A stretch of 64,000 bases of DNA from Escherichia coli. Its GTDB lineage: Bacteria; Pseudomonadota; Gammaproteobacteria; Enterobacterales; Enterobacteriaceae. Both the position numbers and the translations under genes were made by a program. This document shows positions 39,747-40,012 of the stretch, piece by piece. The stretch is taken from the NCBI RefSeq assembly GCF_024298765.1, contig NZ_CP101210.1; one strand, written 5' to 3'. The first letter of the stretch is position 1. The number at the start of each line of letters is the position of its first letter. Below the pieces are notes generated by a model that did no database searches, was not told the DNA's origin, and saw only the letters and a program-made list of their open reading frames with translations.

Positions 39747-40012
39747 GATTGCCTGATGCGACGCATGCGCGTCCTGTCATGCCTCCGGGCATTGCGCATA
39801 TGCGCATCTGGCGATTTCCGTCGCTTACCCTAAATCCGCCATCAACACCTTTGATTTGATGTAGGTCGGATAAGGCGTTCACGCCGCATCCGACGATGAG
39901 CGTCAATACCTGATGCGATGCTAGCGTGTTTATCATGCCTCCAGGCATTGCGCATGTCGCATCTGGCGATTTCCACCACTTACCCCAAATCCGCCATCAA
40001 CACTTTGGATTT
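39747..40012. repeat. REP/BIME-type intergenic repeat: two ~100-bp direct repeats (about 39752-39858 and 39909-40012) flanking a palindromic REP unit
   Basis: TGCCTCCGGGCATTGCGCATATGCGCATCTGGCGATTTCCGTCGCTTACCCTAAATCCGCCATCAACACCTTTGATTTG is repeated as TGCCTCCAGGCATTGCGCATGTCGCATCTGGCGATTTCCACCACTTACCCCAAATCCGCCATCAACACTTTGGATTT; REP between them (GATGTAGGTCGGATAAGGCGTTCACGCCGCATCCGAC). Confidence 0.8.

What the first reader, a model, noticed from the sequence alone, without database searches (positions are those of the whole stretch)
39747..40012. Direct repeat around a REP element duplicates the 3' end of argA
An approximately 100-bp segment that includes the last codons and stop of argA (39909-40012) is repeated about 155 bp away (39752-39858) with a handful of substitutions, and a canonical REP palindrome lies between the copies. 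This looks like a BIME-associated local duplication in the convergent recD/argA intergenic region and is a potential recombination hotspot.
Basis: seen in the sequence. Interest (0 to 1): 0.4.

Follow-up and report, generated by a model that had tools for sequence, protein, structure and literature searches.

The report
REP array with duplicated argA tail
The gap between the E. coli genes recD and argA holds a decayed array of common REP/BIME repeats, in which one repeat unit was copied long ago together with the last 11 codons of argA; this is a real but ordinary strain-to-strain variant found in about 2% of E. coli genomes.

Summary
Window 39744-39857 and 39901-40012 are direct repeats (114/112 nt, about 85% identical, local score 129 against 15±2.3 for shuffles). 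A canonical Y-type REP lies between them at 39861-39894.

Each copy holds a degenerate Z2-type REP, a truncated Y REP, a 12-nt tail, and the argA stop with its last 10 codons.

Comparison with other Escherichia shows that the recD-argA spacer is a decaying BIME-2 array:
- E. whittamii has three intact Z2-Y units there.
- E. albertii and B2 E. coli have one unit (81 bp).
- K-12 has a 61-bp stump.

The window's 237-bp form occurs in exactly 130 of 5,426 complete E. coli genomes, as two alleles only 87% identical to each other. Both alleles share the same end point and one derived 1-nt deletion in the argA remnant. This points to a single old event, not ongoing instability.

The upstream argA fragment is a dead remnant. 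The ArgA protein is unchanged.

Part of the repeat is simply BIME periodicity, and the "recombination hotspot" idea is not shown.

This is a new example of a known kind (BIME-2 copy-number polymorphism that captured a gene fragment) and is of low interest.

The parts
39740..39742 (+). recD stop codon (TAA); the first REP starts 8 nt downstream
39751..39786 (+). Z2a: a degenerate Z2-type REP (GCCTGATGCGACGC...CATGCCTCC). It is the 'first-unit' type (GCGACGC), as in the first Z2 of the E. whittamii array
   Evidence: 83% to a z2 consensus recalled from memory
39787..39812 (+). Short linker plus a truncated Y REP (only the head half is left). It pairs with Z2a to form the long copy-1 hairpin
   Evidence: (-39.9 kcal/mol, z = -4.0)
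39813..39824 (+). 12-nt tail (GATTTCCGTCGC). In single-copy alleles this tail sits directly next to the argA stop
39825..39857 (-). argA remnant: a dead copy of the argA stop plus its last 10 codons. It reads [10 protein letters not shown], has no start codon, and is frameshifted in the second allele
39858..39860 (.). 3-nt filler at the illegitimate join (GAT here, TCC in the second allele)
39861..39894 (+). Canonical full-length Y-type REP with a 5' GTAG. Identical copies occur elsewhere in E. coli genomes
   Evidence: (H40)
39895..39907 (+). BIME-2 head-to-head linker (GATGAGCGTCAAT; compare GATGAGTGCCAAT in E. whittamii)
39908..39942 (+). Z2b: a degenerate Z2-type REP of the 'internal-unit' type (GCGATGC). 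Together with the Y REP and linker it gives a near-threshold Rfam naRNA4 match
   Evidence: (54.6 bits, gathering score 59.5)
39943..39979 (+). Short linker, truncated Y REP and 12-nt tail of copy 2, directly next to the real argA stop
39980..40012 (-). The real argA stop codon and last 10 codons (the gene runs 39980-41311/41377 on the - strand). This is the duplicated part of the live gene

Best explanation
The recD-argA spacer is a decayed BIME-2-type array of alternating Z2 and Y REP palindromes. In this lineage it carries one extra repeat unit of about 156 bp. That unit was formed by a single old illegitimate join between a point 33 nt inside the 3' end of argA (counting the stop) and the GTAG end of a Y REP.

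The present layout is: recD stop, Z2a, truncated Y, tail, dead argA tail, full Y, linker, Z2b, truncated Y, tail, live argA.

The simplest route is unequal exchange or template switching within a two-unit array, with loss of one Z2-Y unit by recombination between Z2 copies. This route is inferred, not shown. The REP-associated transposase TnpA_REP may or may not have made the cut.

The extra argA tail is non-coding debris, and ArgA is unchanged. Functionally, the array acts like other REP/BIME elements between convergent genes: it forms stable hairpins in both 3' UTRs that limit read-through and protect the mRNA 3' ends. This function is inferred from the literature and was not tested here.
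For: Shown:
- The repeat is real and far above chance. Its non-REP part alone (39787-39857 vs 39943-40012) is 62/71 identical, scoring 98 against 13±2.3 for shuffles.
- The central element is a canonical Y REP. The Y-linker-Z2b block matches 40 or more places per genome over its whole length at 82-88% identity. It scores 54.6 bits on the REP325-derived Rfam family naRNA4.
- At the same locus E. whittamii has three tandem Z2-s-Y-l units, 89% identical to the window's Y-l-Z2b. The same GCGACGC (first Z2) versus GCGATGC (internal Z2) distinction is seen between window copies 1 and 2.
- E. albertii, Escherichia sp. MOD1-EC7003 and B2 E. coli have one unit with the same truncated Y. K-12 has a further 20-bp deletion.
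- The two-copy layout occurs in exactly 130 of 5,426 genomes: 97 with allele 1 and 33 with allele 2, which is 86.6% identical.
- Both alleles end the argA remnant at the same base and share loss of one G (TTTGG to TTTG). Allele 2 has a further 1-nt deletion and a substitution in the remnant, so the remnant is decaying.
- The ArgA protein accession is the same as in K-12.
- The copy-1 hairpin and the Y REP fold far better than shuffles.

From the literature:
- BIME-2 consists of z2 + y in tandem, and copy number differs between strains at a locus. TnpA_REP can cut at C|T sites at a distance, which would let a unit pick up flanking gene fragments (PMC3333891).
- REPs act as 3' UTR terminators and stabilisers, and REPs between convergent genes correlate with higher expression of both genes (bioRxiv 10.64898/2026.03.23.713779).
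Against: - No allele with the postulated precursor (full Y-l-Z2b next to argA, without the remnant) was found in E. coli, so the route is a reconstruction.
- The join does not show the clean product expected from TnpA_REP exchange between the Y C|TAC and the CTAC present in argA 9 nt further in. The expected sequence is GATTTACGCTGGTAGG; the observed is GATTTGATGTAGG or GATTTTCCGTAGG.
- The Z2 elements are degenerate (78-83% to each other and to the consensus, with CTCC in place of CTAC). The naRNA4 score is below Rfam's gathering score.
- No U-tract terminator is detected.
- The similarity of Y-l-Z2b to E. whittamii (89%) is only slightly above its similarity to unrelated BIME-2 loci (82-88%). 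The full Y could therefore have arrived from elsewhere rather than being ancestral here.
Confidence: 0.8

Rival explanations
1. Copy 1 is foreign. A recD-spacer-argA' fragment from a diverged Escherichia lineage was joined in by homologous recombination in recD and an illegitimate join at the REP. Under this view the differences in the argA tail are synonymous because both tails evolved inside working genes.
For: - In the window, the three differences between the two argA tails all fall on third codon positions and the remnant still reads [10 protein letters not shown].
- The copies differ by about 15%, far more than the flanking argA (0-2 per 100 nt).
- The 3' end of recD is more diverged than argA.
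Against: - Allele 2 shows the remnant with a single G lost (TTTGATTT). The window state is most simply that deletion plus a 1-nt insertion, so the 'synonymous' pattern is a coincidence.
- Copies 1 and 2 share derived states absent from every single-copy allele: CATGCCTCC, GGCATTGCGCAT and CATCTGGCG.
- No single-copy allele above 95% identity to copy 1 exists in 5,426 E. coli genomes.
- Among the five species-representative genomes whose argA end matched the degenerate pattern, none has CACCTTTGATTT.
Confidence: 0.07
2. The two copies are attL/attR-like scars of an integrative element that inserted into the 3' end of argA and carried a replacement tail (as e14 and phage 21 do at icd). The element was later lost except for the REP.
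For: A duplicated gene 3' end with an intact replacement tail is the classic signature of such integration. This comes from my own knowledge of icd/e14 and was not tested here.
Against: - Only 43 nt lie between the copies. They are a standard Y REP plus a BIME-2 linker, homologous to the array at the same locus in E. whittamii.
- There is no integrase or other element DNA.
- Site-specific excision would restore one copy, not leave two.
- The repeat runs up to the recD stop codon, so it covers the whole native spacer.
Confidence: 0.02
3. A mobile REP doublet (REPIN/BIME unit Y-l-Z2) transposed into a single-unit spacer through TnpA_REP, and about 70 nt of target was duplicated at the insertion.
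For: - Y-l-Z2b is a generic BIME-2 unit found at 40 or more loci per genome.
- TnpA_REP cuts and rejoins BIMEs and can act at a distance, according to PMC3333891.
- The join lies 3 nt from the GTAG.
Against: - IS200/IS605-type Y1 transposases do not make target duplications (my own knowledge, and PMC3333891 describes single-strand cut-and-join).
- Z2b carries locus-specific states (CATGCC rather than CAGGCC, and CTCC) shared with Z2a and with orthologous spacers. It is therefore local, not imported.
- No clean C|T junction signature is present.
Confidence: 0.1

Closest known systems
BIME-2 arrays of E. coli (tandem Y/Z2 palindromic units; Gilson, Bachellier and Hofnung; Ton-Hoang et al. 2012, PMC3333891)
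   Same: - Extragenic position between convergent genes.
- Y and Z2-type REPs in alternating orientation with short linkers.
- Tandem units whose number differs between strains and species at the same locus.
- The unit matches dozens of other loci per genome.
   Different: - Most REPs here are degenerate or truncated.
- The repeat period is about 156 bp instead of about 80-100 bp, because the unit has swallowed a truncated Y, a 12-nt tail and 33 nt of argA.
- K-12's curated record does not list a REP at this locus.
BIME units that captured flanking gene sequence (the codA-cynR case cited in PMC3333891, section 25)
   Same: A REP/BIME amplification unit that includes a fragment of a neighbouring gene.
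   Different: I could not read the supplementary figure for codA-cynR, so the likeness rests on one sentence of that paper. Here the captured piece is only the stop and last 10 codons, and the live gene is untouched.
REP325 / naRNA4 (Rfam RF02564)
   Same: A Y-Z2 REP pair of the same type. The window's Y-l-Z2b aligns to the full 77-nt model.
   Different: The score of 54.6 is below the gathering score of 59.5. This is a different locus, and there is no evidence of a discrete RNA product here. A 2026 preprint reports that REP325 acts as a 3' UTR terminator and stabiliser rather than a nucleoid RNA.
REP-mediated tandem chromosomal duplications (Shyamala, Schneider and Ames 1990; recalled from memory, not read here)
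   Same: A REP lies at the join point of a direct duplication.
   Different: Those are large, unstable duplications formed by REP-REP recombination. This one is 156 bp, old and stable, and only one side of the join is a REP.

Membership tests
REP (palindromic unit), Y type | An imperfect palindrome of about 34 nt with a conserved GTAG at one end and an internal stem mismatch, present in many copies per genome | tested here: met
   39861-39894 starts with GTAG and folds with an internal mismatch. Identical copies occur elsewhere, including on a plasmid (H40). There are many places per genome. It is 94% identical to a y consensus recalled from memory.
REP, Z2 type | GCCTGATGCGACGC...GCGTCTTATCAGGCCTAC palindrome with a terminal CTAC | tested here: inconclusive
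   Z2a and Z2b are 83% and 81% identical to a consensus recalled from memory. The terminal tetranucleotide is CTCC, not CTAC. There is no match within 3 mismatches. The orthologous units in E. whittamii are near-canonical.
BIME-2 | Y and Z2 REPs in alternating (inverted) orientation, separated by short linkers | tested here: met
   Y has GTAG on the + strand. Z2a and Z2b have their CTAC-like end on the + strand, so they are inverted relative to Y. A 13-nt head-to-head linker matches that of the E. whittamii array. The definition is taken from PMC3333891.
BIME-2 | Occurs as tandem copies whose number varies between strains at a locus | tested here: met
   3 units in E. whittamii; 1 unit in E. 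albertii and B2 E. coli; a stump in K-12; 1.7 units in 130 E. coli genomes.
BIME-2 | The unit belongs to a genome-wide dispersed family | tested here: met
   Y-l-Z2b matches 40 or more places per genome (capped), with whole-unit matches of 82-88% at other loci.
naRNA4 (Rfam RF02564) | Score at or above the family's gathering threshold | tested here: not met
   54.6 bits against a gathering score of 59.5. There was no hit in the gathering-threshold scan of the window.
TnpA_REP (RAYT)-generated rearrangement | Junction at a C|T cleavage site (C|TAC of an inverted REP, or a linker CT) joined to another such site | tested here: inconclusive
   The join lies 3 nt from the GTAG of Y. argA has a CTAC 9 nt beyond the remnant end, but the observed junction is not the predicted product (cleavage rules from PMC3333891).
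TnpA_REP (RAYT)-generated rearrangement | The host encodes an active TnpA_REP | not tested
   The gene lies elsewhere on the chromosome, and I did not look for it in the window or in strain 104.
Intrinsic (Rho-independent) bidirectional terminator | GC-rich hairpin followed by a U tract | tested here: not met
   No terminator-like site on either strand in 39500-40200. The hairpins are strong but lack T runs.

The most novel reading that the evidence does not exclude
The shared end point of the argA remnant, 3 nt from the GTAG of a full Y REP in two alleles that are 13% diverged, may be a natural footprint of TnpA_REP cutting at a distance and pulling a coding fragment into a BIME unit. That would be in vivo evidence for the gene-fragment capture step that Ton-Hoang et al. 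proposed from in vitro data.
Probability: 0.15. Interest if true: 0.4.

Novelty: new member of a known kind. Interest (0 to 1): 0.15.

Why it matters
It matters little beyond annotation.

- **Hidden BIME.** A spacer that K-12's curated record treats as plain intergenic DNA turns out to be the stump of a BIME-2 array. Related species still hold the intact array.
- **Worked example.** The locus shows step by step how such arrays grow, capture a piece of a neighbouring gene, and decay.
- **Strain marker.** The two-copy allele marks a subset of strains (2.4% of complete genomes, many from poultry). It may slightly alter the argA and recD 3' UTRs.
- **Annotation caution.** The duplicated argA tail could cause misassembly or a spurious pseudogene call.

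Tried and rejected
1. **'All-synonymous remnant means import from a diverged argA.'** Rejected. Allele 2 shows the simpler -1 state, and no donor-like argA end was found.
2. **Integrative-element att scar.** Rejected. The DNA between the copies is just a BIME-2 Y REP plus linker.
3. **Microhomology or TnpA_REP join at the GTAG/CTAC present in argA 9 nt beyond the remnant.** The predicted junction does not match either allele. Left open.
4. **Search for a precursor allele (Y-l-Z2b without the remnant) in E. coli.** None found.
5. **Rfam.** Only a sub-threshold naRNA4 match.
6. **Consensus promoter and terminator scan.** Nothing found.
7. **Literature search for argA + recD + REP.** No paper found. 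Bachellier et al. 1997 (PMC1207841) is not held.
8. **Comparison of left-part identity (33/43) with right-part identity (62/71).** Intended as a sign of two ages for the two parts. The numbers are too small to be significant, so I treat it as suggestive only.

Full report
**1. What is in the sequence**

recD runs on the + strand and stops at 39740-39742. argA runs on the - strand and stops at 39980-39982. The gene names come from the RefSeq annotation of E. coli strain 104 (NZ_CP029164.1), which is 100% identical over this stretch.

The 237-bp spacer plus the first 33 nt of argA contains a direct repeat. Copy 1 is 39744-39857 and copy 2 is 39901-40012. They are 114 and 112 nt long, have two 1-nt indels, and are about 85% identical. 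The local alignment score is 129, against 15.1±2.3 (maximum 26) for 500 shuffles.

A 34-nt REP with a 5' GTAG lies between the copies at 39861-39894.

**2. Anatomy of each copy**

From left to right, each copy holds four parts:
- a degenerate Z2-type REP (39751-39786 in copy 1; 39908-39942 in copy 2);
- a short linker and the head half of a Y REP (39787-39812; 39943-39967);
- a 12-nt tail (39813-39824; 39968-39979);
- the argA stop with its last 10 codons (39825-39857; 39980-40012).

Within copy 1, the Z2 and the truncated Y pair into a long hairpin (-39.9 kcal/mol, z = -4.0). The central Y REP folds on its own (-19 kcal/mol, z = -3.6).

The copy-1 argA tail still reads [10 protein letters not shown], but it has no start codon and a stop lies just upstream. 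The live ArgA protein has the same RefSeq accession as in K-12.

**3. The spacer in relatives**

The spacer differs greatly between genomes:

| Genome | Spacer state |
|---|---|
| K-12 | 61-bp spacer, one hairpin |
| B2-type E. coli (BH100N) | 81 bp: one Z2 plus a truncated Y |
| E. albertii and Escherichia sp. MOD1-EC7003 | one Z2 plus a truncated Y, the same layout as the B2 type |
| 'E. coli' SCPM-O-B-8794 (representative of a separate species cluster) | a degenerate Z2 plus a full Y |
| E. whittamii | three tandem units of Z2, 10-nt linker, inverted Y and 13-nt linker, then the same 12-nt tail and argA |

The outgroup genomes came from a scan of one genome per species for any sequence encoding the ArgA C-terminus.

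The window's block of Y REP, linker GATGAGCGTCAAT and Z2b is 89% identical to an E. whittamii unit. In E. whittamii the first Z2 reads GCGACGC and the internal ones read GCGATGC. Window copies 1 and 2 show the same difference.

The locus is therefore a BIME-2 array that has decayed to different degrees in different lineages. K-12's curated record lists no REP there.

**4. How much is duplication and how much is repeat-family similarity**

Whole-unit matches at other loci are 82-88% identical. It also gives a full-length, sub-threshold match to Rfam naRNA4, a family built on the BIME at REP325 (54.6 bits; gathering score 59.5).

Z2a and Z2b are only 78% identical to each other, no closer than either is to a z2 consensus recalled from memory. 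That part of the repeat needs no special event.

The remaining part does. 39787-39857 versus 39943-40012 is 62/71 identical, scoring 98 against 13±2.3 for shuffles. This sequence exists nowhere else in the genome: there are at most two places per genome. One illegitimate join, between a point 33 nt into argA and the GTAG end of a full Y REP, accounts for the layout.

**5. Distribution and age**

- Exactly 130 of 5,426 complete E. coli genomes carry the two-copy layout.
- None has three copies.
- None has the Y-l-Z2b block without the argA remnant.
- 97 genomes carry the window allele at 99% identity or more. Many of the listed isolates are from chickens, turkeys or APEC strains.
- 33 genomes carry a second allele that is only 86.6% identical but has the same layout.

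In the second allele the argA remnant has two 1-nt deletions and one substitution, so it no longer reads in frame. Both alleles end the remnant at the same base, and both have lost one G (TTTGG to TTTG).

That shared state argues for a single origin before the alleles diverged. It also explains the window's apparently synonymous differences, which are most simply one deletion plus one insertion.

The positional counterparts of copy 1 in the two alleles are 89% identical, closer than copy 1 is to copy 2 within the window (83% in the global alignment). Each allele also has some states shared by its own two copies, which suggests limited gene conversion.

Between the two alleles the spacer differs at 11-14 positions per 100 nt, while argA differs at 0-2. 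The spacer therefore either evolves much faster than its flanks or is much older than them.

**6. How it probably arose (inferred)**

The simplest route starts from a two-unit array. An unequal exchange or template switch joined argA(-33) to the Y REP. One Z2-Y unit was then lost by recombination between Z2 copies.

Ton-Hoang et al. (PMC3333891) report three relevant points:
- BIME-2 copy number varies between strains at a locus.
- TnpA_REP cleaves at C|T sites in inverted REPs and linkers, even at a distance, and catalyses strand exchange.
- This could let a unit take up flanking gene fragments.

The join here lies 3 nt from the GTAG, and argA has a CTAC 9 nt further in. However, the predicted product (GATTTACGCTGGTAGG) is not what either allele shows (GATTTGATGTAGG and GATTTTCCGTAGG). 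Transposase involvement is therefore possible but unsupported.

**7. How it probably works (inferred)**

No U-tract terminator or promoter consensus is present. The hairpins begin 8 nt after the recD stop and 12 nt after the argA stop.

A 2026 preprint reports that REPs act as partly Rho-dependent terminators and as mRNA stabilisers in 3' UTRs. It also reports that REPs between convergent genes go with higher expression of both genes. The extra unit adds two more hairpins to both 3' UTRs. Whether that changes anything was not tested.

**8. Verdict**

It is a further example of a known phenomenon: BIME-2 copy-number polymorphism with capture of a flanking gene fragment.

The 'recombination hotspot' idea is not supported for the present structure, which is old and stable in two alleles. 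The locus has, however, been restructured repeatedly across the genus. Interest is low.

Noticed in passing
window 42797-64000 (ORFs 42997-43878, 43910-45490, 45484-46665, 46668-47264): In K-12 and strain 602354, amiC is followed by the initiator tRNA-Met genes (metZWV). In the window, amiC is instead followed by a PRD/CAT antiterminator, a PTS EIIC-EIIB protein, a class I/II aminotransferase and a SIS-domain protein. No tRNA-Met gene appears anywhere up to the window end. This looks like a strain-specific island at this position.
   Followed up: partly
window 37830-38430 and 38830-38929 (recD): Against strain 602354, recD shows patches of 8-15 differences per 100 nt (38030-38129: 15; 38330-38429: 12). 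Neighbouring stretches and argA differ by 0-3. This suggests a mosaic, recombined recD.
   Followed up: no
L011 (E. whittamii), reverse strand, about 8199-330 to 8231: The orthologous recD-argA spacer holds an intact three-unit BIME-2 array with near-canonical Z2 and Y REPs. It serves as a reference for the undecayed state of this locus.
   Followed up: yes
L013 3001-3263 (E. coli strain 602354 and 32 other genomes): A second, 13%-diverged allele has the same two-copy layout. Its argA remnant is frameshifted and the 3-nt junction filler differs (TCC instead of GAT).
   Followed up: yes
window 39743-39750 and 39968-39979: Both convergent genes have a REP-derived hairpin starting very close to the stop codon: 8 nt after recD and 12 nt after argA. 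From memory, REPs within about 15 nt of a stop codon have been reported to stall terminating ribosomes and lower protein output. I did not check this here.
   Followed up: no
window 13990-14071 and 14187-14274; 2909-2982: Two tandem OmrA/OmrB sRNA genes (Rfam RF00079, 86 and 97 bits) and a tRNA-Gly(CCC). These are ordinary landmarks of this chromosomal region.
   Followed up: no
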